Below are positions 41,328 through 56,646 of a DNA stretch of 64,000 bases, piece by piece. The DNA comes from Octopus vulgaris. Its lineage: Eukaryota. The stretch is taken from NCBI GenBank assembly GCA_951406725.2, contig OX597829.1, positions 23,498,001-23,562,000 of the forward strand, read 5' to 3'. The stretch's first letter is position 1. Each line of letters starts with the position of its first letter. The position numbers were made by a program, and so were the translations under genes. The notes below the pieces were generated by a model that saw only the letters and a program-made list of their open reading frames with translations, was not told the origin of the DNA and ran no database searches.

Positions 41328-41362
<35 letters not shown>

Positions 41363-41551
41363 AGCAAAACCCTTGCCCAGTGGCAAGACATTTGTGGAAC
41401 ATGAATAACAAACCATAAAGAAATGTTGAGTAAAAGCAAAAATACAGAAAAAAAAAAAAAATCATAATTTATACACACATGCACTGTAAATATCAATTTC
41501 AAATCTAAATATAAAAAATATAATAAACAAAAGCATCACATTACAAATAGC

Positions 41552-41557
41552 TTTATT
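41552..41557 (-). terminator. Polyadenylation signal AATAAA
   Basis: Minus-strand AATAAA followed by TTTGTAATGTGATGCTTTTGTTTATTATATTTTTT (GU/U-rich element). Confidence 0.5.
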
Positions 41558-43049
41558 TGAAGTGCCAGTAGTAACTATAGCATTGGTTACTACAAGACAT
41601 AAAAAAAATCTCCAAATATTTTAATATTACAATCATAGTGAAATGACATTGTAAGTCACTGGCTACTGTTTTAAGAAGAAAAAAAAAGTGTACTTAAATG
41701 AATGTGCCATTAAACAATTCACAACAAATAAAGTCGATTAAAGTTATAATAGTAATAATAATAATAAATGATAATCAGGACTTGCCCAATATATTTTGTG
41801 TTGTTGTAGTTGTACATGGTGTTATAATTTTCATTTTATCTGCCATGTACTTATTAATATATGACATAGTGAGAAAAGAATATGTTGTGTGAAATGAACA
41901 AGACAAAATGAGCCATAAAATGCTTACATCATGATAGTGGACTGAAAGATTAGTCAGAAGACACAAAAAAAAAAAAAAAAAAAAACTACAACTCTTACTT
42001 AATATTTGCATTTTTTTCTCTTTTCTAAGTGGAAAATAAATATGAATTTATCATGAATGTTTATGAAATCTAAAAATTATGGAAAAAAATATACAAGAAA
42101 TAGTTTGTTTTTGTTTTTTGCAAATGTCTTTATTAGGTTATTATTTATCATCATTTGTTAATACTTTAGAATATATACACAATATTTTAAGCCTATTCTT
42201 ACACAATTTTGTAAGAAAAATAAAGCAGGGAGATAGAGGGCAAGTTTTATTGGAGAATGGCATTAGCACAAATTTTTATTTCAACATTTCAAATACTTTT
42301 TTTTTCTCACATACATGTATAGCTTAACTGATAAAAAAAAAAAAAAAAAAAAACTGATTGAAAAAAAAAGTAATTATGACAGTCTTAAGAAGCATAATCA
42401 ATAAATTGAAAAAATTCTCATATTTTCTATTTGGTAAAAATGAAATTTCTTTTATCTTTGGGAAGTTATGACAATAAATTTAAAATAAAACCCACAAAAT
42501 AGCACATTTTCATTTCACAACCATTAAATTTCTCACATCATAAATACTGTTTGGATTAATGAAAACAAATTATCTAAAATGAAGGCCTAGTGGTAATGAC
42601 AATATTTATAAGTAATTTTTCAATTATTACTTGAAATCTAATGTAAATTTTTTCTTTTTTCTTTTCAAACATCCATAATTGAAACTGTTATTAACTCTAA
42701 GACATTTGACTCCCATGTAATCTATAACATATATATTTATATGTATTAAAACTGTAACCAGGTTATCAAATTAAAAATCTTCAGAAGTCTCCCACTGCTG
42801 CTTGATAAAATAAAGTAGCTTCCCATTACATATAGGTAACAGAAACTTATTTATATAGTGATGCTAAATTGGTAATGTGTTTGAAGATAGTAACCAAAGA
42901 TGTAACTATACGAGTTAAAAATCTAATTTAAACTGTCAACTAACTAAGTATCATACTGAAATAAGAAGTTGGATCCATATGACTGACTAAAATTACTTGA
43001 CGCCTCAGCATGGCTAAAACTGGTAAAAAATGTGGATGTATAATCAGTT

Positions 43050-43258
43050 AGCCTGGAGCTTGGGTACAATCTTTTTGGTTGCATGATTTAGTGCTGCAAT
43101 TGCCACAGTTGTCCACTTTCATTGTGTTGAGGAAAAAGGCCCAAAGGATGAAGTTCAATTCCTGAGCTGTTTGAGGGTTTCACCATTCGTTTATGGCATG
43201 AACTTGCATGACTTAAGCTTTTGAGACAAGCATGACTACTGGCAGAATCAACCATGTA
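43050..43258 (-). pseudogene. Decayed fragment of the 5' end of 18S rRNA, probably with adjacent 5'ETS sequence (43259-~43380)
   Basis: Minus strand TACATGGTTGATTCTGCCAGTAGTCATGCTTGTCTCAAAAGCTTAAGTCATGC...GGTGAAACC...GTGGACAACTGTGGCAATT...CTAAATCATGC...AAGCTCC is colinear with the universal 18S start TACCTGGTTGATCCTGCCAGTAGTCATATGCTTGTCTCAAAG...GGATAACTGTGGTAATTCTAGAGCTAATACATGC. Confidence 0.9.
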
Positions 43259-43624
43259 TCAGAAAAGCATGTGGTGGCGGCAGCATGCAAAAAGTGGAAG
43301 GAAAAGACAAGGAATAGGAAGTGGAAGCAACAGAGGTGGTGGCAGTTCCTTTCTTTGATCCTGCCTACCACTGCTTTAATGACACAGCATTGGTGACATT
43401 ATATATCTACATAAAGAGAGAGGCAAGTGAACAGTAGAATTAAAATGACTGGGAGACAATATATTGCATTTGACACTGTGATACATTGCTTTTGAGCCTT
43501 ACTAGTGTTTATGTAATTTTTGAGCCAAACTGGTGTTTATGTAAATTTACTATATATATATATCCTACAAAGTGGTAGGTACCCAAGCATCGCTGCACTC
43601 TAATGACTAAAGAACATATATTTA

Positions 43625-43992
43625 GGCATTATTTACATTTGACGAATATTTGTCCTCATCATGTTTGTTTTTAACACAATGTTTCGGTTGATATACCCTC
43701 CAGCCTTCATCAGGTGTCTTGGGAATGGGTTCTCATTCCCAAGGTTTTTTTTTTCTTTTTCCCTTCATGATCTATGACAACTATATCTGGCCTATTGGCC
43801 TTAATTTCTCAAACCATTACACCATATAATAGATTAAGAAAGAGAACCCAGGTTTGAAATTTCCCCAAAACACCTGATGAAGGCTGGAGGGTATATCAGC
43901 CGAAACATGTTAAGAAACAAGATGAGGACAAATATCCACCAAATGTAAATAAAGTACATAACTCCTCATCTCTTAAATATAGAACTGTATTA
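43625..43992. mobile_element. Penelope/Poseidon-type inverted pLTR pair
   Basis: ACACCTGATGAAGGCTGGAGGGTATATCAGCCGAAAC at 43870-43906 and its reverse complement at ~43670-43720. Confidence 0.75.
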
Positions 43993-44911
43993 TATATTTA
44001 GGCAGTCATATGTACAAATATGTATGATTTCTCTCTACCCATATATATACATATATACACACACATACAAAAAGTGATAAACACTTGTACAACATGAATA
44101 ACACTCTCTGACCCTATCTGCTATGTACTGACTATTTAAACCTAAAGAAATACTTAAAGATAATATCATGAGAAAGACTGAAATCAACCTGAATCTAATA
44201 CAAATACTACTGTTAAGAGAGTTAATTTCACATGTCATTAGATGTTAAGTCTAAAACCATCTTATTCTTTGGCAAAATATCTTCAATCTGTATTAGCAGG
44301 ATTACTATAAAGAAATCTAACTTCAATAATCTTCTTCAATGTGGAACTACTCATCTAGTCATAAACATTGTTATTATTAATGCTACAAATTTCAAACATT
44401 TTATGGTAAGGCACTTCAAAAATAAAAGAAATATATGCATGTGTGCGTGTATATATATGTGTGTGTGTGTGTGTTTATACAAAGTGGAAGCTCACGACCT
44501 GTGGTTAGGGTAACTGGCTCATGATCATAAGGTCATGGGTTTGACTCCTGGCAGCGAGTAGTGTTCTTGACACACACACATATTACATATATATGATATG
44601 CTTTATATATGTATTATATTAAGAATCTATAATATATGTTTCATATATCAACTGCCACCTCAGGCACTGGCACCCTTAGCACTCATTAGGATGAAGAGGC
44701 TCAACAACTCACTACAGATTAACTACTTGGATAAGAGTTAATGCCGCCACTACCATCAATATATTATATATTCACAGTTTATTGGAACTGAAAATTAAAA
44801 TGTCTATTAAAGTGCTTTTTGTCTTTTAAAAAATTATATATTTGAAGATTTTCCCTATTGCTTCTTAAAGAAACTTTTGAGATATATGTCTTTTAATTTT
44901 TTAACTACTTG

Positions 44912-45522
44912 GATGATTATTTACATTTGATGGATATTTGTCCTCATCTTTTCAGCTGATATACCCCCCAGCTTTCATCAGGTGTCTTGGGGAAATTCGG
45001 ATGTTATTATTATTCAGGCCACTGTCTGGAATCAATCTCGGAATCTTGGGGTTAGTAGCCTGCGCTTTTAACCACTACGCCATATGTCTGTGGGCAACTA
45101 TGGAGTGAATTTTAGGGCTTATAAATCTAATATATTCCTATCCTTCTGTAATACTGGTTCCCATATGCTATTCATATCTGCACTCAGTCTGCTTAGGAGG
45201 TTGCTGTGTCCTAGCATATATGCAGCTTCTTTTATTTTTCGTATTTTCCATTGGTGTTCTCTATTATTTTAATTTCATCCCACAGAGGGAGGTGGTCTCC
45301 ATTTTTCCACACATGATCAGCTATACTTGATTTATCAATATCTCGTGTCACAGCTTTGCAATGTTCCTCTACCTTTATTTTGAGGGGGGTGGCATGTATC
45401 ACCTGACAAAAGCTGCAGGGTATACAGCCGAAATGTGTTAACAACAAACAAGATGAGGACAAATATCTGTCAAATGTAAATAATATACATAATTCCTCAT
45501 CTCTTAAATATAGAACTGTATT
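44912..45522. mobile_element. Penelope/Poseidon-type fragment with GIY-YIG remnant between inverted ends
   Basis: Minus-strand PLKIKVEEHCKAV...SSIADHVWKNGDHLPLWDEIKII and WKIRKIKEAAYM; flanked by inverted copies of the pLTR seen at 21.6 and 43.7 kb. Confidence 0.75.
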
Positions 45523-46013
45523 ATTTAGATGATATTGAGAAGATAAAAAATTAGAAAAATTATTTGAATATTACATAAGAAGCAAATGATCACGCCAATA
45601 TAAATAATATCGGAACTAGTTCTATGTTGAGGAAATCTAAACTAAAAAAAATAAGGAACATTTTATAATGTGAAAGTATAATGGAAGCAACAAGCATAGA
45701 GTGACAAAATGACAAAAGGAACTTCCATTTTTACCAGTAAAAAAATTTGTTTAATGGGTGGCTTGTAATAGAAATCAAATATTGAAAATATTTTAAAATT
45801 TCTGAAAACAAATATAACTAGACAAAGTTAATAAATCGAAGATATCAATCAATCAAACTAAAATAAGTTCTTGCCGAAATTTCTTTCCAAAAGTCATTTC
45901 TTTTATACTCAGACATACATATACTCACATAGATATATATATTCCCACACAGTGTTGCTCCAGCCACCTGGCTAAAACAAATATATATATATATATTTAT
46001 ACATGTGCATATG

Positions 46014-46060
<47 letters not shown>

Positions 46061-46609
46061 GTGTGTGTATACGTACACACATTCACACTGGCTAGATCTG
46101 GCCTCATACCTACCTGACAATGTCATTCAAATCATAAACAATCATCATAGCATATAATACACACACACACACATAATAGTAGCTCTTTTGGATGCGTATT
46201 CAATTTGACACACATACACACCCACCCCAGAAAAGAGGTACAATGAATTAATCTTCGGAATTTCAAACGCTTTCTAAGTTACCTTTTGAATTCATAGCCT
46301 AGATAAAAATATTAATAGAAATATAAACATTTTAAAAGCTTAAAGAACATAAGTAACAATGTTGCCACCTAAATTGTAAACCAGGACTGATAAGCCATTG
46401 TTCGTCTGAGGTGGTTTAAAACTATTCAACCAATTTATAAATGGTACAATATCAAAAACGTACACTTCCAAGTGCTTCTTCTGATGTACAATGTGTATGT
46501 GTGTATATATACATTATGTATGTGTTTATATATATTTATACACACATACACATTCATTTATGCATACACACACACACATACACATATATATACACACACA
46601 CAGACACAC

Positions 46610-46641
<32 letters not shown>

Positions 46642-46854
46642 ATAAAACACAAAGTCTTTCAAAGAATATTCATTATCATTTCAAAACTAACCAGCTATGG
46701 AATTGAAACAAAATCTTGTGCTCTGATAATGGATATTTTGAAGCTGTTACACCATTAGCGAAAAGGAAGAAAGGTCTCTCTCCTGTAAATATAAAGAATT
46801 TAAAGGAACTTTTAATAAGGTAAACTGAAAAAAATATTTTAAAATTATTAATAA

Positions 46855-47320
46855 TCCTTTCTACTAAAGGCACAAAGCCTGAAATTTGTGGGGAGGGGTA
46901 GTTGATTACACTGGCCTGCGCTTCACTAGTACTTTATTCACTGACCCTGAAAGGATGAAAGGCAAAGTTGACCGTGGTGGAATTTGAAGTCAAAATGTAG
47001 CAATGGGCAAAATACTGCTAAGCATTTCACCTGGCGTGCTAATGATTCTGCCTTGTTAATAATAATGATAAAATTAATGGTTTCAATTTTGGCACAAGGC
47101 TAGCAATTTAAGAGTGAATGGGATAGTTGACTACATCTACACTGAAAGGATGAAAGAAGTTGACCTTGGAACATAAACACTGAAGAAATGCCACAAAGCA
47201 TTCTGTCCAGTGTGTTAAGAATTCTGCCACTTCACTACTTTGTTTAATAATTCTTTCTACTAGAGGTACAAGGCCTGAAATTCTAGGTGGGGTTAAAACT
47301 AGTCGATTACATCAAGCTCC
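46855..47320 (-). mobile_element. Three head-to-tail SINE-B copies (others at 1095-1225, 3655-3865, 19185-19378, 26920-27095, 38455-38855)
   Basis: Repeated GAAAGGATGAAAGGCAAAGT(C/T)GACC block on the + strand. Confidence 0.75.
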
Positions 47321-47481
47321 TGTACTTTGCTACCATTTCACTGTCTTGTTAATAAATAAAATAAATCATCTCACAAACAACGATAAATAGAAAGGAAATA
47401 AATGTTAATTCGATATATTTCATAATAATAATGCATATTACTGATTGATGTATATTTGATAAGAAAAACCAAGCTTACCTT

Positions 47482-50400
47482 TTAAGACTGCATTTGAGAA
47501 AATAATTCAGCTGCAGTTGTTCCAGTGATAGTTTGACCAGATGTTTCGTATTGCACTGTTCCATCTCCCTGTTCAACGATAGCATGAGCAACTTCTTCTG
47601 GGTTAGCTGTATGCACAATAATAATGGTCTCTTGTCCACCCTCTGTTTGTAATGTAGTTATTGTCTGATTGTTAAGTTCGTGTGCTGCATCAGTGACAAC
47701 AGCAGTATAAGTTCCTTCAGCAACTGAACCATCAGTTACTGTAGCATATACTGCTTGAGATTGTACTAATTCGGTTACTTTTCTCATGTCATCAATCTCC
47801 TCATCATCCATACCATCATCTAACATTTCATCCTCATCATCATCATCATCTTCGTCTTTAATCAGTGGAGCCATTTCTCCAGCAGCTACGTGAACTTTTC
47901 CAATATGTTCAAGCAATAATTTCTTACGTTTAAAAGTCTCCTGGCACATATCACATTGATAAGGTGATAATTTCTTATGCACTAATTGAATATGAGACAT
48001 AAGGTTCGACTTATTATTGAAGCAGCGGCCACAATCAGTGCACTTGTGTGGTTTTTCTCCTGTATGTATAAGCATGTGCCGGTCAACATGGTACTTCTTT
48101 GTAAACCTTTTCTCACAGACAGAGCAAATGAAAATTTTTTGATTAGGAGATTTCCAACCTTCATGTACTCGTTTCGTATGCCCAATAAGAGCACCTAAAG
48201 TTTTGAATGCAGCTTTGCATACGTCACAGAGATACTGACGAGTGTGCAAATGCATACCTTTAATATGAGTGTTAAGATTTCCACGGAATGCTGATGAATA
48301 ATCACAATGAGGACATTTATAAGGCTTTCTTCCAGAATGAACAGTGCGCATGTGAGAGCTGATTCCTGTTCTTAAGACTACCTTTCCACAAATTGGACAA
48401 GCGCTTTGCATTCTGTTTTGCTGGTGAAGTTCTTGATGGCGCTTCATATTTTTCGTGACCTTACCACATTCAGAACAGGTCTCACCAGCTTCGTCCCCAC
48501 CTTGTGTTGAAACTTTCATGATACGCTCTCTCCATTTTGCATTACGCATTTCTTCATCATAATCTGCTTCATGGCGATGTTTACTCTTAATATGCTTTAC
48601 CAGACCAATGAAGGCCTTATCGCAAAATGGACATTTCAGAGCTTCTTCAGTGTTTCTTTTAACACTCTTGCGCTTCGGTTCATCTTCAAATAAACTGAAA
48701 TCTGACTCTTCCTTCTTTCGGCGACGTCTTCTATAAAGATCTCCATCATCTGCATCTATTTCATCAATTTCACCTTCTTGCCCAAGTGGTCCAAATTTCT
48801 TTTTTCTCAGTCGTGGATCTGTCTGTGTTTGTACAGATCGTCTACCAGGAGATTCAAAAACAGTTTCAACCTCAACAAACTGAGGTGTCTGTGGTGTCCT
48901 TGGAGATTTGTCTTGCATAGCAGCATTTTTTGCAGCCAAAAACTCATCCTCATCAATTTGATCAATGTTATAAATATCATCTTGTTTGTCATCAAGTCTC
49001 CGCCTGTGCACTCTAATAGGAGTGAGAACTGCTCCATCATCTCCACAGATAATTCTTGACAAAGATTCTTCTTCAAGCTCATAAATTTCCTCTCTATCAT
49101 CTCTGTCTTCAATAGTATTGTCATTTTTATCTTCAATATACCCTTCCATGTCCTCTACTTCCATTTCAAGAGGCTCCTGTTTCATGTCTCGCATGGATTC
49201 ATTACTACTTTTAATATGAGAATACGACATGGTTTTACTTCTAGGAGAAGTGATAACAGTTCCTATATATTCATCACTTTCGTCATCATCCTCGTCGTCT
49301 TCCTCAACTTCTTCAATCTCCTCTTCCTCCTCTTCATCTTCGTCAACATCATCATCTTCACTATCATCATAAATTGTACTTGTACCTACAGCAGTATCTT
49401 CAAAATACCTTGCTTTCTTTTTTGGCGAAGCCATAGAAACTTTAGATGGAAGATCAATTCTTGATAATTCACTAACAGCTTCATCACTTTCTTCTGAAGG
49501 CACCTCATCGTCATCAAATTCAGCCTTACGCTTCCTGACATACTTAATTCCAGAAGTGCTAGCAACTGGCTCACCATCTTTCTCACTCGCTGCCTTTGAT
49601 CGGCGACCTGAAGATTTCTCAGCTACTTCAATACTCTCAGCATCTTTCTTTGCAGATTTTGGTGTTTCCTTACTTTTTGGTCTACCACGACGTGGCAGAG
49701 TATCTTCAGCTTTCTTTGACACATTCGGTGATTCTTTTGCTGCGTCCTTGCCCTTTGAAGATAATTTTTCCTTTTTCTTAGTAGATGTTTCAGGAGAGGA
49801 CTTTTTCTGTGACTTTTCTTCCTGACCTTTCTTTATTCTGCCAGAACGGCGCCTACCTTCTTCTTCGTCCTCCTCCTCTTCTTCATTGCTAATCTTCTGA
49901 CGTTTAGCTCGTCCTTCTGGAGAATCAACATCGTAATTCTTTTCTAATGAATCTTTTCTTGGACGACCTCTCTTTTGACTTGAAGAAGGCGTGTCGTGTT
50001 TTTCAGTGGTTGCTTTTTCTGCTTTCTTAGGAGGATCATCTTTCCGAGGCCTACCTCGCTTTCGTTTTAAAGTAGATTCATTCTTAGATTCCCCTGCACT
50101 ATCAACACTTTGTTCAGCGTCTTCGGATAAATCAGTTTCTTTGGAAGACTTTCTCTTTGTTTGTTTGGTTTCTTTTGTAGCACTAGGCTCTGATTCATCA
50201 CCACTGGTTTCTTTGCTCCGAACACGTAAAGATCGGTTACTGGATTTTGGAGTTTCAAACTCACTATCTGTGCTTTTAGTGGCCTGAGATGCTGCTGGAG
50301 TAGTAGACTTAGGTGGCCTACCTCTACGTCTTGGAGTTGCTGCTTCTGTTTGTCCTTTGTTCCCAGTCAAATCTGGAGTTGCACACTCAATAATCTGTAC

Positions 50401-53400
50401 ATCGTCTTGCTGTTCAGTTACAGCTTGTTGACTGGCTGCTAATTGTTGTATACTAAGTGTTCCCTGATCTTGTAAAACTACTGCCTCTAGTTGTTGCTGT
50501 TGTGTCTGGCCATCCAATGCTTCTAGTGGCTGCTCTCCACTGTTAACTGTTTGCAATAGAGTCTCCCCACCAGCAACAACCTGAAGCTGCTGTTCTGAAA
50601 TACTAAATGTTTCTAGTTGGTTGCTAGGGGTACTAACAAGTGCCAGTTGATTCCCTGAAGTACTGACAACTGTCAACTGATTTCCAGAAGCTCCAACAAC
50701 TTCCAGTTGACCCATTTGAGTTCCAAAAACTTGTAATTGGTTCCCTGACGCACCAACAACTTCTACTTTATTTTCCGGGGTGCTCACAACTTCTATTTGA
50801 TTACTCGGAGTACTAACAATCTCTACCTGGTTACTTGGAGTACTGACAATCTCTACTTGGTTACTTGGAGTACTGACAATCTCTACTTGGTTACTTGGAG
50901 TACTCACAACCTCCACTTGACTTTCTAGAGTACCAACAACTGCTTGATTCGCTTGTGTAGTAACAGTCATTTCTGGAATGCTGACAACTCCTAAATGATG
51001 TCCTGCAGCACTGGTGGTGGAGGACTTTAACTGGTATTTTGGAGAGTCAAACTTCTGCATCTTTTGAGGTGGTTCAACTTGTTGCACTTCCTTGTTAGTT
51101 TCCCCTACTTGTTTTAAAATACTGGACATTGGTACTTGTACCTTCACTGTCTGCGTCTGGCCAGCTACAGCTGCATCTTCTTTTGGTTTATTAATAGATA
51201 TAGATTTTAATTCCCCGACAGTTTTTGTCATAGAACTTTGCTGATTAGTCTCCTTTGTTGTTTCTGCTTTCTTCCCAGCTGCTTCTTTCAAAGATTCTGC
51301 CTTCTTTACAGTTTCCTGAGACACCTCCACTTTCTTCGGTGATTCTGTCTTCTCAACATCTTTGGCAAATTCTGTCTTTTTCCCAGTATCTTTTGATACT
51401 TCTTTTCTTCCAACATCTTTTACTTTCTGAGCATCTTTTGGTGACTCCACCTTTTTCACAGGTTCTGCTCTCTTCCCAATATCTTTTTGTACCTCTGCCT
51501 TTTTTGCAGCATCCTTCGCACTTTCTACCTTTTTCCCAGCATCTTTAATAGGTTCAGCTCTTTTTGCAGCATCTTTTGGCGACTCTGTCTTTTTTCCAAG
51601 CTCTTTCGATGGTTCTACCTTCTTTGCAGCATCTTTTGGTGATTCCACTTTCTTTACAGCATCTTTTGGTGGCTCTACCCTTTTTCCAACATCCTTTGAA
51701 GGTTCCACTTTCTTTGCAGCATCTTTTGATGGTTCCACTTTCTTTGTAACATCTTTTGGTGGTTCCACTTTCTTTGTGGCATCTTTTGGTGGTTCTGCCT
51801 TCTTTGCAGCATCTTTTGGTGGCTCTACCTTCTTTGCAGCATCTTTCGGTGGTTCTGTCTTTTTTGCAGCATCTTTTGGTGGCTCTACCTTCTTTGCTGC
51901 ATCTTTTGGTGATTCTGCCTTCTTTGCAACATCTTTTGGAGGTTCCACCTTCTTTACTGCATCTTTTGGTGGCTCCACCTTCTTTGCTGCATCTTTTGGT
52001 GGCTCTACCTTCTTTGCTGCATCTTTTGGTGGCTCTACCTTCTTTGCTGCATCTTTTGGTGGCTCTACCTTCTTTGCTGCATCTTTTGGTGGTTCTACTT
52101 TCTTTGCAGCATCTTTTGGTGGTTCCACCTTCTTTGCAGCATCTTTTGGTGGTTCCACTTTCTTTGTGGCATCCTTTGATGGTTCTACTTTGTTGGCAGC
52201 ATCTCTTGACACTTCCATCTTCTTCACAGTATCTTTTAGTACTTCTACTTTTGGAGGCTCCACCTTCTTTGCAACCTCTTTTGGCATTTCTACCTTCCTT
52301 CCAACATCTTTTGGTGGTTCAACCCTCTTTGGAACATCTTTTGAAAGTTCTACCTTCTTTGCAACATCTTTTGGTGGTTCCACTTTCTTTGGAACATCTT
52401 TTGGTGGCTCTACCTTCTTTGCAACATCTTTTGGTGGTTCAACCTTCTTTGGAACGTCTTTTTGTGGTTCAACTTTCTTTGCATCTTTTGGCAATTCCAC
52501 CTTCTTCCCAACATCTTTTGGTGGCTCCACTTTTCTCGCAGCCTCATTTGATGATTCCATCTTCTTTGCAGCCTCTTTTGACAGTTCCACTTTCTTTGCA
52601 ACATCTTTGGAAAGGTCTATTTTCTTTGCAGTATCTTGCAAATGCTCTGCTTTCTTCCCAGCTTCCTGTGGTATTTCTGTTCTTCTAACACTCACAGGTG
52701 GTGTGCCTGATTCCTTACTAACCTTCTGTAATGATTCTGTCTGTTTCTGAACATCTTGCACATGTTCTGGTTTCTTCCCCACTTCTTGTGATACCATTGC
52801 TTTCTTTACAGTGTTCAACACTGCTTCTGTCCTTTTTGTTTCTGTTCCTAAAGATTTTTCCTTTTGTACAGTTTCTGGAGCTTTCCCTGGTTGCACTACC
52901 AATGATCTCATGCTTTTAAGCTGTTGTGATTGTGCAGTGGAGGATTGCTGTTGATCTTTAGATTTAACATCTGAGAATATTTTTGATTCTGGAGTTTGGC
53001 CTTTTGGCACACTTTCATGTAGTCTTGAGGTTTGCTGTTGTACCGTACTAGGTTGCGTGGAGGCTGGTTGAGTGACAGATAAGATTTTAGACTGTGGTTG
53101 TTGTAATGTAGATGCAGCTGACATCACCTGCTTCTGAATAATAGGTTCTTGTTGACTAACTAACTGCTGAACATTAACTGATTTTGCTGATTGCTGCTGA
53201 CCAACAAGTGTTTCAGTTACAGTTTTTGGTAATTGTTGCTGTGACGGAATAGAAACTAAAGTAGTGACAGCAGGCTGCGATGGCTTCAATGTTTGTTGTG
53301 ATGAAACTTGGGTCACTGCTGCCTGTGTTGTTTGAACTGGCTTTTGCACTTGCACAACAATAGGTTTTTGCGTCTGTGGTGAGACAACAGCCTTAACTGG

Positions 53401-56400
53401 CAGCTGTGTTACAGTTGTTTTACCTGGCTCTGACTGAGACAAAGTTGTTGACTTTACAGTTTGCTGTTGCACGGTTACAGACTTTGTGGTTTGCTGCTGT
53501 TGTTGCAAGGATGTTACTTTTAAAGGCGGTTGCTGTACCAAAGTCACAGATTTTGCAGGTTGCTGTACAAGAGTAACAGACTTGGCCGGTTGCTGTAGCA
53601 CCACTGCTGGCTTTTCAGATTGCTGTTGCACTGAAATTGTTTTAGTAGGCTGCTGTTGTTGAACAGCTGTTGATTTTACTGGTACTTGCTGCTGTATTGT
53701 AACTGATTTTACTGGCTGCTGTTGTGCTGAGACCAATTTGGCTGGTTGTTGTATTATAATTGACTTTGTAGCTTGTTGCACTGTACCTGGTTTAGAAAGC
53801 TGCTGCTGTACTGTAACTGGCTTAGAAGGCTGCTGTTGCTGTATAGTAACTGTTTTAGAAGGCTGCTGTTGTTGTACTGTAACTGGTTTAGAAGGCTGCT
53901 GCTGTTGTACTGTTACTGGTTTAGAAGGCTGCTGCTGTATAGTAACTGTTTTAGGGGACTGCTGCTGTTGTTGTTGTACAGTAATTGGTTTAGTGGATTG
54001 CTGCTGTTGCACTGTAACTGTTTTCGGAGACTGTTGTACAATAATTTGTTTTGTTACTGGTTGTGCAGTCGTAGTTTTAGCCGACAACTGTTGTGTAGAA
54101 GTCATTTGCACTTGTGTTGTTGGAGATTTTGCTATTTGCTTAGGCTGTTGCTGTTGTTGCAGTATGCTAGCTTGTGCTTGCACTCCTTCTTTTGGTTGTA
54201 AACGCTGAATGGGTTTTGGCTGTAAAACTTGGAGACCTGGTTTAACTTGTACCGACTGTGCTGGTTTTGATACTGGCGATTGGACTTGCCATGTAGTAAT
54301 CTGTTGGGGTTGAGTCTGTTTCTGTGGAGATGTGGTGGATGATTGTAGTACAATTTGTTTAGATTGTGGAAGTGTTATTGGCTGAGTAACTGTTTGCTTC
54401 AACTGCACAGGCGTGGTCTTTACAGACGATTGTACTTGAGCTTCTTGTGACGGCTGAAGTAAGGACTGCCCTGTTTTAGACATCGAAGCCATCTGTTGCA
54501 AAGAAACCTGTTGAGCTTGTGGCTGTTTTATTGTTATTGTCTGTGGACTTACAGTCGATGGTCTAGGTGCAGATATTAGTGATACTTTGGAAGGTACAAG
54601 TTTAGAAGGAGTAACTGCTGATTGGAGCTGAGAAGATTGTTTAGCCTGAGTATAAGTGATTGGCTGTGTTGTAACCAACTTAGAAACTGTACTTTGCTGT
54701 GATTGGTCCAATTTCGGCAAAGATGCACTTGTTACTGGTTGTTTAAGCAAAGTTTGCTGAGTTGTTTGTGCCTGTTTCAGTAATGAGGTTTGTGCCACCT
54801 GAGCTGGTTTTGGAGCAAATACAAATGTCTGTTTTGTTGGCAATTGAGATGTTACCTGCATCTGTTTAGAGGTGTTAATTGTAGATGGTGTAGAAGCGGA
54901 TGTAGACTGTCCAGCTTGTTTATTAATAAGCTGAACATGCTGAGAAGATACAACTGGATTTGAAGGAGATGTAGACTGAACCTGAACTTGCTTAGCTTGA
55001 GATACAGCTTGTGAGACTACAGTCTGCTTTGGCGGCAATGTTGCTGATAGTACAGATTGTTTTTGTTCAGCTGCTTGCCGAGATTTCTCAGTTTGCTGAC
55101 CAGCATCTCTAAATTTGGAAGCAGCCTGTGTATTAATGGATGTTGTGGTTGTTGATCCAAGAGTACTGGTCACAGTTGAAGTGGTTGTCAAAAGAGTAGA
55201 GCCAGATTTAGCTGTTAATAAATTGCCTGCTGACTGTTCTTCGGAACCAACAACATCAAATACATATTGTTGATTATTGTCTTTTTGCTCGGTTCCCTCA
55301 AGGTCTGCATCAGTAGAGGTTTTTATTGTCTCAGTAACAATAGATGCTGCACTACCAATATCAACCATTATTACCTCATGTCCCCCTTGGATATTGGTGA
55401 TAAGCAATTCATTACTAGAAGCTTTTGGGTCAACTGAAAGCATATCTCCTTCTTTTGCCACTGATTTTTGCATTGTCTCCAAATCTTTTTGCAAGGAAAT
55501 AGCTACTGGTGTTTCTTTAGACTTAATATCAGGAGAAAGAGACACCAAGCCTTTTAAATCTGCTGGTAACTGCTTAATTGGAAAATACTTTTCTGGTTGA
55601 TCTGAATCCGTTTTTGTCACATGCTGAACAACATAATAAGGTGATGACTCAGTAGGCACTTCATTGGTCTCATCATTATTTGAGTCAATATTCATTGCTG
55701 ATGAATCGATACTTACAGTTTCCTCCTTGATTATTTGTTCAGTTTCTATTTCCATTGGTATGGAATTCTGAACTTCAGTTTCACTCAAGTCAATGACAAA
55801 GAACTGTGCACCATCAGCAGATGCTTGCAATGTTGCTTTATTCAGGTCAACACCACTAGATTTTAGCATGTTATGGTCCAGTTGAAAATAAGTTTCTTGA
55901 ATGGCTGCTTCTAAAGCAGGATTTTTCTCTTCCATCTTTGAATCTTTTGAAGTTATTTGTATTGGTGTGCTATCAAGTGTACTACCATCTTCGCAAACAT
56001 AGGTGTTGTTTACAGATAAACTAACATTACCAGAAGTGGTCATAAACTCTGTATCTTTGCCAGTCAGAGAAGAGATTTGACTATTAGGATCTTGAACAAG
56101 AACAGCATGCTGTATCATTTGGTGTTTGATGGATGAGCCATCATCTTTATCTTGGTCTTTTTCTTTATCATTAGATTTAGTTTCAACAGCCATCACTTGA
56201 AGGGCTACATTATCTACAGGGATCAACTCTACATCCATACCACCAGACTGTCCTGTGAGTATGGATTTTGGTGTAGTGATACATGTTGCCTGACTACCAA
56301 GACTACTATCCAAACCTTTGATAAAAGCATAAGTAACTCCACCAAGTGTGGTACTAGTAACTTCAGTCGTTTCTATACCTTCTGACGTTGGCTGCACTTG

Positions 56401-56646
56401 GGGTAATGTAGTGAATAACTCTGGTGAGACAAGAACAGTTTGCGTTTGCTGAACACCAGCCGATGTAACTATGGCACCAGGAACAGAACTAAGAGAGGTC
56501 CCAGAAATGATATCCACATCAGTTACTGCATGAGATTCAGATGTGAGTGATCCAACATGGGTTGATGGAATTTGAATACTACCATCTTGAGTTTGAATTG
56601 TATCTGGATTTATTGACTGAGGAAGGTTGTTTCCAGATATTTCCAT
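47482..56646 (-). CDS. 3054-aa AT-hook / C2H2 zinc-finger protein with long low-complexity and tandem-repeat regions
   Basis: Uninterrupted 9165-nt ORF; AAAATGG start with an in-frame TAA at 56677-56679 upstream. Eight C2H2 fingers (47890-48633, TGEKP/SGRKP linkers), four RGRP AT-hooks (49675-50331), D/E tracts, Q/T/S/V-rich N-terminal half. Confidence 0.95.
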   Translation of the reverse strand: MEISGNNLPQSINPDTIQTQDGSIQIPSTHVGSLTSESHAVTDVDIISGTSLSSVPGAIVTSAGVQQTQTVLVSPELFTTLPQVQPTSEGIETTEVTSTTLGGVTYAFIKGLDSSLGSQATCITTPKSILTGQSGGMDVELIPVDNVALQVMAVETKSNDKEKDQDKDDGSSIKHQMIQHAVLVQDPNSQISSLTGKDTEFMTTSGNVSLSVNNTYVCEDGSTLDSTPIQITSKDSKMEEKNPALEAAIQETYFQLDHNMLKSSGVDLNKATLQASADGAQFFVIDLSETEVQNSIPMEIETEQIIKEETVSIDSSAMNIDSNNDETNEVPTESSPYYVVQHVTKTDSDQPEKYFPIKQLPADLKGLVSLSPDIKSKETPVAISLQKDLETMQKSVAKEGDMLSVDPKASSNELLITNIQGGHEVIMVDIGSAASIVTETIKTSTDADLEGTEQKDNNQQYVFDVVGSEEQSAGNLLTAKSGSTLLTTTSTVTSTLGSTTTTSINTQAASKFRDAGQQTEKSRQAAEQKQSVLSATLPPKQTVVSQAVSQAKQVQVQSTSPSNPVVSSQHVQLINKQAGQSTSASTPSTINTSKQMQVTSQLPTKQTFVFAPKPAQVAQTSLLKQAQTTQQTLLKQPVTSASLPKLDQSQQSTVSKLVTTQPITYTQAKQSSQLQSAVTPSKLVPSKVSLISAPRPSTVSPQTITIKQPQAQQVSLQQMASMSKTGQSLLQPSQEAQVQSSVKTTPVQLKQTVTQPITLPQSKQIVLQSSTTSPQKQTQPQQITTWQVQSPVSKPAQSVQVKPGLQVLQPKPIQRLQPKEGVQAQASILQQQQQPKQIAKSPTTQVQMTSTQQLSAKTTTAQPVTKQIIVQQSPKTVTVQQQQSTKPITVQQQQQQSPKTVTIQQQPSKPVTVQQQQPSKPVTVQQQQPSKTVTIQQQQPSKPVTVQQQLSKPGTVQQATKSIIIQQPAKLVSAQQQPVKSVTIQQQVPVKSTAVQQQQPTKTISVQQQSEKPAVVLQQPAKSVTLVQQPAKSVTLVQQPPLKVTSLQQQQQTTKSVTVQQQTVKSTTLSQSEPGKTTVTQLPVKAVVSPQTQKPIVVQVQKPVQTTQAAVTQVSSQQTLKPSQPAVTTLVSIPSQQQLPKTVTETLVGQQQSAKSVNVQQLVSQQEPIIQKQVMSAASTLQQPQSKILSVTQPASTQPSTVQQQTSRLHESVPKGQTPESKIFSDVKSKDQQQSSTAQSQQLKSMRSLVVQPGKAPETVQKEKSLGTETKRTEAVLNTVKKAMVSQEVGKKPEHVQDVQKQTESLQKVSKESGTPPVSVRRTEIPQEAGKKAEHLQDTAKKIDLSKDVAKKVELSKEAAKKMESSNEAARKVEPPKDVGKKVELPKDAKKVEPQKDVPKKVEPPKDVAKKVEPPKDVPKKVEPPKDVAKKVELSKDVPKRVEPPKDVGRKVEMPKEVAKKVEPPKVEVLKDTVKKMEVSRDAANKVEPSKDATKKVEPPKDAAKKVEPPKDAAKKVEPPKDAAKKVEPPKDAAKKVEPPKDAAKKVEPPKDAAKKVEPPKDAVKKVEPPKDVAKKAESPKDAAKKVEPPKDAAKKTEPPKDAAKKVEPPKDAAKKAEPPKDATKKVEPPKDVTKKVEPSKDAAKKVEPSKDVGKRVEPPKDAVKKVESPKDAAKKVEPSKELGKKTESPKDAAKRAEPIKDAGKKVESAKDAAKKAEVQKDIGKRAEPVKKVESPKDAQKVKDVGRKEVSKDTGKKTEFAKDVEKTESPKKVEVSQETVKKAESLKEAAGKKAETTKETNQQSSMTKTVGELKSISINKPKEDAAVAGQTQTVKVQVPMSSILKQVGETNKEVQQVEPPQKMQKFDSPKYQLKSSTTSAAGHHLGVVSIPEMTVTTQANQAVVGTLESQVEVVSTPSNQVEIVSTPSNQVEIVSTPSNQVEIVSTPSNQIEVVSTPENKVEVVGASGNQLQVFGTQMGQLEVVGASGNQLTVVSTSGNQLALVSTPSNQLETFSISEQQLQVVAGGETLLQTVNSGEQPLEALDGQTQQQQLEAVVLQDQGTLSIQQLAASQQAVTEQQDDVQIIECATPDLTGNKGQTEAATPRRRGRPPKSTTPAASQATKSTDSEFETPKSSNRSLRVRSKETSGDESEPSATKETKQTKRKSSKETDLSEDAEQSVDSAGESKNESTLKRKRGRPRKDDPPKKAEKATTEKHDTPSSSQKRGRPRKDSLEKNYDVDSPEGRAKRQKISNEEEEEDEEEGRRRSGRIKKGQEEKSQKKSSPETSTKKKEKLSSKGKDAAKESPNVSKKAEDTLPRRGRPKSKETPKSAKKDAESIEVAEKSSGRRSKAASEKDGEPVASTSGIKYVRKRKAEFDDDEVPSEESDEAVSELSRIDLPSKVSMASPKKKARYFEDTAVGTSTIYDDSEDDDVDEDEEEEEEIEEVEEDDEDDDESDEYIGTVITSPRSKTMSYSHIKSSNESMRDMKQEPLEMEVEDMEGYIEDKNDNTIEDRDDREEIYELEEESLSRIICGDDGAVLTPIRVHRRRLDDKQDDIYNIDQIDEDEFLAAKNAAMQDKSPRTPQTPQFVEVETVFESPGRRSVQTQTDPRLRKKKFGPLGQEGEIDEIDADDGDLYRRRRRKKEESDFSLFEDEPKRKSVKRNTEEALKCPFCDKAFIGLVKHIKSKHRHEADYDEEMRNAKWRERIMKVSTQGGDEAGETCSECGKVTKNMKRHQELHQQNRMQSACPICGKVVLRTGISSHMRTVHSGRKPYKCPHCDYSSAFRGNLNTHIKGMHLHTRQYLCDVCKAAFKTLGALIGHTKRVHEGWKSPNQKIFICSVCEKRFTKKYHVDRHMLIHTGEKPHKCTDCGRCFNNKSNLMSHIQLVHKKLSPYQCDMCQETFKRKKLLLEHIGKVHVAAGEMAPLIKDEDDDDDEDEMLDDGMDDEEIDDMRKVTELVQSQAVYATVTDGSVAEGTYTAVVTDAAHELNNQTITTLQTEGGQETIIIVHTANPEEVAHAIVEQGDGTVQYETSGQTITGTTAAELFSQMQS
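50540..50950 (-). repeat. Coding 30-bp repeat, ~12 units of QVEIVSTPSN
   Basis: Repeated ctctacttggttacttggagtactgacaat on the + strand. Confidence 0.9.
51290..52660 (-). repeat. Coding 30-bp minisatellite, ~40 units of KKVEPPKDAA
   Basis: Visible in protein and DNA (+ strand atcttttggtggctctaccttctttgcagc); homogeneous centre, diverged edges. Confidence 0.95.
53450..54060 (-). repeat. Coding Q-rich repeat, units of (P)SKPVTVQQQQ
   Basis: Roughly 15-20 variable-length K-x-V-T-V/I-Qn units in the translation. Confidence 0.85.

What the first reader, a model, noticed from the sequence alone, without database searches (positions are those of the whole stretch)
43050..43406. Fossil 5'ETS-18S rRNA fragment in sense orientation inside the probable 3'UTR of the zinc-finger gene
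Seen: ~210 nt colinear with the start of 18S rRNA, beginning at the mature 5' end (43258). It is preceded by a more GC-rich stretch that may be 5'ETS and shows CpG-decay-type changes (CCCTCAAACAGCTCA where 18S has CCGCGAAYGGCTCA). It lies 148 nt downstream of the best candidate acceptor. Inference: an rDNA/pre-rRNA insertion was captured into the mRNA and may even have supplied the acceptor. It covers the region bound by U3 and U14 snoRNAs in pre-rRNA, so residual pairing or nucleolar localisation is conceivable. It could also cause loss of this mRNA in rRNA-depleted libraries.
Basis: partly seen in the sequence, partly recalled or inferred. Interest (0 to 1): 0.75.

Follow-up and report, generated by a model that had tools for sequence, protein, structure and literature searches.

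The report
Decayed 18S rRNA fragment near gene
A roughly 180-base, heavily mutated copy of the start of the 18S ribosomal RNA gene lies just downstream of an octopus zinc-finger gene and is likely an ordinary, functionless rDNA relic that may be carried along passively in that gene's 3' untranslated region.

Summary
The fragment is real. On the minus strand, 43258 matches position 1 of Rfam's eukaryotic SSU rRNA model (E 3e-12). An 18S profile aligns 43255-43076 (E 5e-20), so about 180 nt are firm, not 210. It sits in a GC-rich island, about 42996-43397. The gene has the same orientation and is 99.8% identical to Octopus sinensis XP_036367449.1.

The copy looks decayed. It differs at 25 of 80 near-invariant columns, against at most 8 in 61 reference 18S sequences. 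Helix 8 keeps 2 of 7 inner pairs, against 5-6. The U14 site A equivalent has 3 substitutions and 1 insertion. No cephalopod 18S was available, so some differences may be lineage-specific.

The 5'ETS identity could not be tested. The candidate acceptor at 43407 ranks 4th of 176 and lies at or outside the island's edge. A 2.2-kb repeat-free stretch favours a 3'UTR exon, but no read evidence was obtained.

Verdict: a dispersed rDNA pseudogene fragment, a known kind, probably a neutral passenger. The snoRNA and nucleolar idea is not supported.

The parts
43076..43258 (-). Decayed 5' end of 18S rRNA (helix 1 to helix 8), starting at the mature 5' end
   Evidence: Rfam RF01960 E 3.3e-12; nhmmer E 5.3e-20; decay counts
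42996..43075 (-). GC-rich tail of the island; possibly the 18S variable region that follows helix 8, not alignable to non-cephalopod references
   Evidence: GC change-point at 42996; no profile hit; cephalopod primer site matches only at chance level, 115 of 1659 controls
43259..43397 (-). GC-rich stretch directly upstream of the 18S start; 5'ETS by position only (inferred)
   Evidence: 45% GC and change-point at 43397; long imperfect hairpin, z -1.94, 6 of 200 shuffles as stable; no similarity to 84 non-host ETS ends
43407..43440 (-). Candidate 3' splice site (pyrimidine tract and TAG) for an intron 47478-43407
   Evidence: Sequence; rank 4 of 176 in a crude score; use not shown
47473..47481 (-). 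Consensus 5' splice donor (AAG|GTAAGC), 3 nt after the stop codon
   Evidence: Sequence; use not shown
47482..56646 (-). Uninterrupted 3054-aa ORF of a C2H2 zinc-finger protein; host gene
   Evidence: ORF; Pfam zf-C2H2; 2785 of 2790 aligned residues identical to O. sinensis XP_036367449.1; orthologue-like hits across molluscs
41540..43406 (-). Probable terminal 3'UTR exon (inferred); AT-rich outside the island, AATAAA at 41557 and ATTAAA at 41625; end point approximate
   Evidence: Repeat-free run 41359-43550 (2192 bp) is the longest of 116 runs apart from the two that overlap the ORF; signals
42328..42349 (-). Rival acceptor (long T run, then ATCAG); if used, the 18S fragment is intronic
   Evidence: Top score of 176; use not shown

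Best explanation
The stretch is a decayed copy of the first ~180 bases of 18S rRNA, likely part of a ~400-bp piece of rDNA or pre-rRNA that inserted once downstream of the zinc-finger gene, and it is likely drifting without function while being carried passively in the gene's 3'UTR or last intron. SHOWN: 18S homology, sense orientation, position, a GC-rich island of about 400 bp, and loss of conserved columns and helix pairs relative to non-cephalopod references. INFERRED: (1) the upstream ~140 nt are 5'ETS, which would make the source rDNA or unprocessed pre-rRNA rather than mature 18S; (2) capture at a DNA break rather than by LINE retroposition, because no target-site duplication of 7 nt or more and no poly(A) tail were found, though age could erase both; (3) neutral decay since; (4) inclusion in the mature mRNA through a 47479-to-43406 splice or an unspliced long 3'UTR, about 60%.
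For: Homology. Decay: 25 of 80 near-invariant columns differ once the columns fixed by my search pattern are removed, against a median of 0 and a maximum of 8 among 61 references. There is a 2-nt deletion where 0 of 61 references have a gap, and the helix-1 C4-G20 pair, present in 61 of 61, is broken. Helix 8 inner stem keeps 2 of 7 pairs against 5-6 in all 61 (its 5' strand was fixed by the search pattern, but the losses are on the free 3' strand). Identity to the best reference is 63%, below the lowest reference-to-reference value of 69%. No folding stability above shuffles: z 0.00 for the 18S part and 0.31 for the whole. Single copy in the window and no further rDNA. No TSD or tail. Dispersed degraded rDNA pieces, mostly under 500 bp, are described genome-wide in human (PMC5381670, abstract and part 1 of section 24).
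Against: All references are non-cephalopod, so part of the divergence may be lineage-specific 18S evolution rather than decay, and the true distance to the host rDNA is unknown. The first 57 columns are better preserved (6 of 41 conserved columns differ; longest exact run 18 nt) and include the U3 site. The fragment lies in the longest repeat-free stretch outside the ORF region, which suggests constraint on the surrounding sequence. The upstream hairpin is borderline stable (6 of 200 shuffles). No orthologous locus could be compared, so neutrality is inferred, not measured.
Confidence: 0.82

Rival explanations
1. Exapted element: the fragment sits in the mature 3'UTR, and its helix-1/U3 site or upstream hairpin binds U3 snoRNP or ribosome-assembly proteins, retaining or localising the zinc-finger mRNA or tuning its stability.
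For: Sense orientation and start at the mature 5' end; 21 of the first 23 nt match the reference consensus; repeat-free context; borderline hairpin.
Against: U14 site A equivalent has 3 substitutions and 1 insertion; helix 8 is broken; the helix-1 closing pair is broken. In yeast, U14 needed more than 232 nt of 18S, and U3 binding site A lies beyond position 281 of the 5'ETS (PMC4803056 passages). U3-18S pairing needs Imp3 in vitro (PMC3854528 passages). No excess folding stability. The 5' block is also the most conserved part of 18S among the references, so it would look best preserved against non-host references anyway.
Confidence: 0.05
2. One copy of an 18S/ETS-headed repeat family (an rRNA-derived SINE-like element) spread through octopus genomes.
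For: The window is rich in interspersed repeats. rRNA-derived SINEs exist in other animals (SINE28 in mammals, SINE18 in mosquitoes; both recalled, and my one search for SINE18 listed 0 papers).
Against: One copy in 64 kb; no tail, no TSD, no 3' segment shared with the window's repeats. The genome was not held, so copy number is untested.
Confidence: 0.08
3. The insertion created the splice acceptor at 43407 and thereby defined the terminal exon (exonisation).
For: The island's edge (43397) lies within about 10 nt of the candidate exon start, a close coincidence; the repeat-free run begins at 43550.
Against: The tract and AG fall on the outer side of the best change-point; three other acceptors score higher; use of the site is not shown; composition cannot place an old edge to the base.
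Confidence: 0.05

Closest known systems
Dispersed degraded rDNA fragments / rRNA pseudogenes (Robicheau et al. 2017, PMC5381670; abstract and part 1 of section 24 read)
   Same: Short (<500 bp), degraded piece of the 45S unit away from the rDNA array, with substitutions and indels.
   Different: Found in an octopus, in sense orientation in the 3' region of a protein-coding gene; copy number and age unknown.
Eukaryotic SSU rRNA, Rfam RF01960 (5' end, helices 1-8)
   Same: Colinear from model position 1 to about 175.
   Different: About a tenth of the gene; below gathering score; broken helices and indels in conserved columns; no neighbouring rDNA in the window.
rRNA-derived SINEs (SINE28, SINE18; recalled, not retrieved)
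   Same: rRNA sequence outside the rDNA array.
   Different: No tail, TSD or second copy found here; genome-wide copy number untested.
rRNA-like sequences in mRNA UTRs (PMC3763539, PMC4911919; search listing and start of abstract only)
   Same: rRNA-related sequence in or near an mRNA untranslated region.
   Different: Those papers concern complementarity to rRNA; this piece is in sense orientation, so it would not pair with 18S, and it is one long insertion.

Membership tests
Dispersed rDNA pseudogene fragment | Significant homology to part of the 45S unit | tested here: met
Dispersed rDNA pseudogene fragment | Outside an rDNA array and truncated | tested here: met
   Only one 18S hit in 64 kb with a near-full-length profile; no rRNA family at gathering score in the window
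Dispersed rDNA pseudogene fragment | Loss of conserved columns and helix pairs | tested here: met
   25 of 80 columns against at most 8; helix 8 with 2 of 7 pairs. References are non-cephalopod.
Dispersed rDNA pseudogene fragment | Neutral-rate divergence from host rDNA and between species | not testable with these tools
   No host genome, no cephalopod 18S found, no reads laid
Pre-rRNA/rDNA 5'ETS-18S junction | Upstream sequence homologous to the host 5'ETS | tested here: inconclusive
   GC island continues about 140 nt upstream; no match to 84 non-host ETS ends, which differ widely among themselves
rRNA-derived SINE | Many copies with shared boundaries | not testable with these tools
   1 copy in the window; genome not held
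rRNA-derived SINE | LINE-type 3' tail and target-site duplication | tested here: not met
   No shared 7-mer or longer between the flanks searched, and no poly(A) tail; age could erase both
U14 snoRNA target (site A, 18S 83-95) | Intact 13-nt site | tested here: not met
   3 substitutions and 1 insertion. The 61 references were selected on this motif, so their invariance is by construction; the Rfam consensus and L059 show the site independently.
U3 snoRNA target (18S helix 1 plus 5'ETS sites) | Intact 18S nt 1-23 | tested here: inconclusive
   2 of 23 changed: C4A and C13T; octopus U3 not available
U3 snoRNA target (18S helix 1 plus 5'ETS sites) | Upstream 5'ETS hinge-binding sites present | not testable with these tools
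   Only about 140 nt of putative ETS; positions of the sites in octopus unknown
3'UTR exon of the zinc-finger mRNA | Spliced or continuous mRNA reads covering the fragment | not tested
   No reads could be laid; indirect support only, rival acceptors

The most novel reading that the evidence does not exclude
An rDNA piece spanning the 5'ETS-18S junction inserted at the 3' end of a chromatin-type zinc-finger gene, brought or fixed the acceptor of its terminal exon, and has been kept in octopods as a pre-rRNA mimic whose helix-1 site recruits U3 snoRNP factors and holds the mRNA near the nucleolus.
Probability: 0.04. Interest if true: 0.75.

Novelty: new member of a known kind. Interest (0 to 1): 0.14.

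Why it matters
If the best reading holds, it matters little: large animal genomes carry many degraded rDNA pieces, and this is one more. Its practical use is as a warning that reads from this transcript region could be filtered as rRNA, or slightly depleted by rRNA probes. It would matter if octopod orthologues showed the fragment to be conserved in the mature mRNA, because an mRNA that mimics the pre-rRNA processing junction would be an unusual route to exaptation. Nothing measured here points that way.

Tried and rejected
Host genome search: no genome held.

Sequencing runs: no RNA holder listed on record. 20 of 23 rows hold 0.67-0.86 of the sampled words of 42000-47900; 14 of these are only guessed to be RNA. 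The exon-only model would give about 0.30, and the fragment is about 0.06 of the words. No read-level result was obtained.

Looking for a cephalopod 18S: a window-derived pattern found 0 in metagenome contigs and 0 in viral contigs. In prokaryote genomes it gave 58 loci, taken as chance matches from their titles and not analysed. A broader pattern gave 101 loci; the best is 63% identical to the fragment. Of 103 loci (these plus L059, L060), 86 had a usable 18S 5' end and 61 were distinct; the rest were dropped.

Other searches: phages, no match. Rfam miRNA and snoRNA hits near the region are below gathering score and reflect an inverted repeat or chance. Extension of 18S homology beyond 43076 was not significant. 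The 17-nt likeness between the putative ETS and 58888-58872 has E 0.096 and was rejected. The first two protein searches gave only generic zinc-finger hits or nothing, and the exact window protein is not in the collection.

Papers: the O. vulgaris isoform annotation of PMC9699675 (218-MB GTF in supplement 1) could not be read; it may settle the UTR structure. Ten paper searches listed no paper on this locus or on octopus rDNA pseudogenes; the library lacks most subscription papers. Three look-ups of earlier findings returned nothing.

Full report
1. Observation. The minus strand from 43258 reads as the start of 18S rRNA. Rfam RF01960 matches from model position 1 at 47.9 bits, E 3.3e-12, when 261 nt are scanned. 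The match is below the gathering score of 50 and was not listed in the whole-window or 1.5-kb scans. I fetched 101 metagenome loci bearing animal-type 18S motifs and two mis-deposited eukaryotic rDNA records. Of these 103 loci, 86 had a usable 5' end and 61 were distinct. A profile of the 61 aligns 43255-43076 at E 5.3e-20, the only significant hit in the window. A near-full-length profile from 27 sequences finds only the same piece. About 183 nt are therefore firm.

2. Extent of the insertion. GC is 41-46% in 43000-43399 and 18-29% in 41400-42999. The best two-break model is 42996-43397, with the upper edge between 43373 and 43399 among the ten best fits. So the foreign piece is likely about 400 bp: about 140 nt upstream of the 18S start, 183 nt of alignable 18S, and about 80 nt that may be variable-region sequence. 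The upstream part is where 5'ETS would be. It folds into a long imperfect hairpin of borderline stability (6 of 200 shuffles as stable) and matches none of 84 non-host ETS ends above chance. ETS identity stays an inference from position and composition. No flanking duplication of 7 nt or more and no poly(A) tail were found.

3. State of the copy. After removing the 33 columns fixed by my search pattern, the fragment differs at 25 of 80 columns that are at least 95% conserved; the references differ at a median of 0 and a maximum of 8. It has a 2-nt deletion where none of 61 has a gap. The C4-G20 pair of helix 1 is broken, and the inner stem of helix 8 keeps 2 of 7 pairs against 5-6. It folds no better than shuffles. 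CpG decay is suggestive only: 1 CpG against 2-7; one of two shared CpG sites changed in the decay direction; TpG+CpA excess matched by 14 of 241 control windows. The main limit is that no cephalopod 18S was available. Some changes may be octopus-specific, and the age cannot be estimated.

4. Host gene. A 3054-aa single ORF (56646-47482, minus strand) ends in C2H2 fingers. It is identical at 2785 of 2790 aligned residues to O. sinensis XP_036367449.1, named 'protein piccolo isoform X9' by its source, which lacks 264 residues of the repeat region. Related proteins occur across molluscs (77 hits), and a 1645-aa relative from a cluster that includes a Sepia pharaonis protein ends in the same residues. 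A consensus donor follows the stop by 3 nt. The fragment is in sense orientation, 4.2 kb downstream of the stop.

5. UTR or intron. For a terminal exon: 41359-43550 is free of in-window repeats and microsatellites, the longest such run of 116 apart from the two that overlap the ORF. By contrast, 23% of 43407-47478 is repeat. AATAAA at 41557 precedes the return of repeats at 41358. Against: 43407 ranks only 4th of 176 acceptor candidates in a crude score, behind 42328, 41666 and 42354, although T-rich UTRs readily produce such false sites. A 1.9-kb terminal exon would also be long against the 350-380 nt median reported for O. vulgaris (PMC9699675, part 1 of section 5). No reads could be laid; the run listing is given under Tried and rejected. 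I put inclusion in mature mRNA at about 60%. The acceptor's tract and AG lie just outside the island's best edge, so 'the insertion supplied the acceptor' is unsupported, though the closeness (about 10 nt) keeps it open.

6. snoRNA idea. In yeast, U14 site A is 18S 83-95, and U14 associated with an 18S-289 RNA but not with 18S-232 (PMC4803056 and PMC5829643, passages). The equivalent 13 nt here carry 3 substitutions and 1 insertion. The references were selected on that motif, but the Rfam consensus and record L059 show the site independently. U3 pairs with helix 1 (18S 1-23), and this needs Imp3 in vitro (PMC3854528, passages). Here 21 of 23 nt are kept, so pairing is not excluded by sequence, but octopus U3 and U14 were not available. 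[quoted passage not shown] Overall the function reading has no positive evidence.

7. Mechanism, committed. A piece of rDNA or pre-rRNA spanning the ETS-18S junction likely inserted once, most simply as filler at a DNA break (inferred). It has likely decayed since (shown against non-host references; neutrality inferred) and is likely transcribed as a passenger of the zinc-finger gene, in the 3'UTR or last intron (inferred). Confidence 0.82. Rivals: mobile rRNA-headed repeat 0.08, exapted RNA element 0.05, exonisation by the insertion 0.05.

8. Known context and verdict. Short degraded rDNA pieces dispersed through a genome are described for human (PMC5381670, abstract and part 1 of section 24). 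This is a new member of that kind. Ten paper searches listed nothing on this locus, within a library that lacks most subscription papers. The unreadable isoform annotation of PMC9699675 may bear on the UTR question. Interest 0.14; the bold case (conserved pre-rRNA mimic in an mRNA) has probability about 0.04 and would deserve 0.75.

Noticed in passing
window 43679-43723 and 43864-43908: Two inverted copies of a local repeat (45-nt arms, 96% complementary, 140 nt apart) lie about 270 nt upstream of the candidate acceptor, with more copies at 44916-44997 and 45434-45527. They would form long dsRNA in the pre-mRNA, a likely ADAR substrate in an octopus. They explain the sub-threshold Rfam miRNA hits.
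   Followed up: partly
window 47482-56646 (-): One 9.2-kb uninterrupted ORF. The octopus protein (3054 aa) is about twice the length of the 1645-aa relative P0121 and of named non-cephalopod mollusc relatives (about 870-1510 aa), with long Q-rich and KKVEPPKDAA-type repeat tracts and several RGRP (AT-hook-like, recalled motif) stretches. The 'piccolo' name looks like a low-complexity artefact.
   Followed up: partly
window protein residues 1371-1634 against P0209: The O. sinensis annotated isoform lacks 264 residues of the tandem-repeat tract: a repeat-length difference, an assembly collapse or an in-frame internal splice.
   Followed up: no
window 47478 (-): Consensus splice donor only 3 nt after the stop codon, the arrangement that would let a 3'UTR intron escape nonsense-mediated decay (established 50-nt rule, recalled).
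   Followed up: partly
window 42328-42366 (-): Two adjacent T runs each ending in ATCAG, the strongest acceptor-like sites of the region; on the plus strand they read as A runs that could be old poly(A) tails or cause internal oligo-dT priming of antisense RNA.
   Followed up: partly
L059 (NZ_CP082873.1) and L060 (NZ_CP050525.1): Two records deposited as bacterial plasmids hold eukaryotic rDNA: L060 is 18S from end to end; L059 holds 5S and the 18S start. Likely contamination in the plasmid collection.
   Followed up: partly
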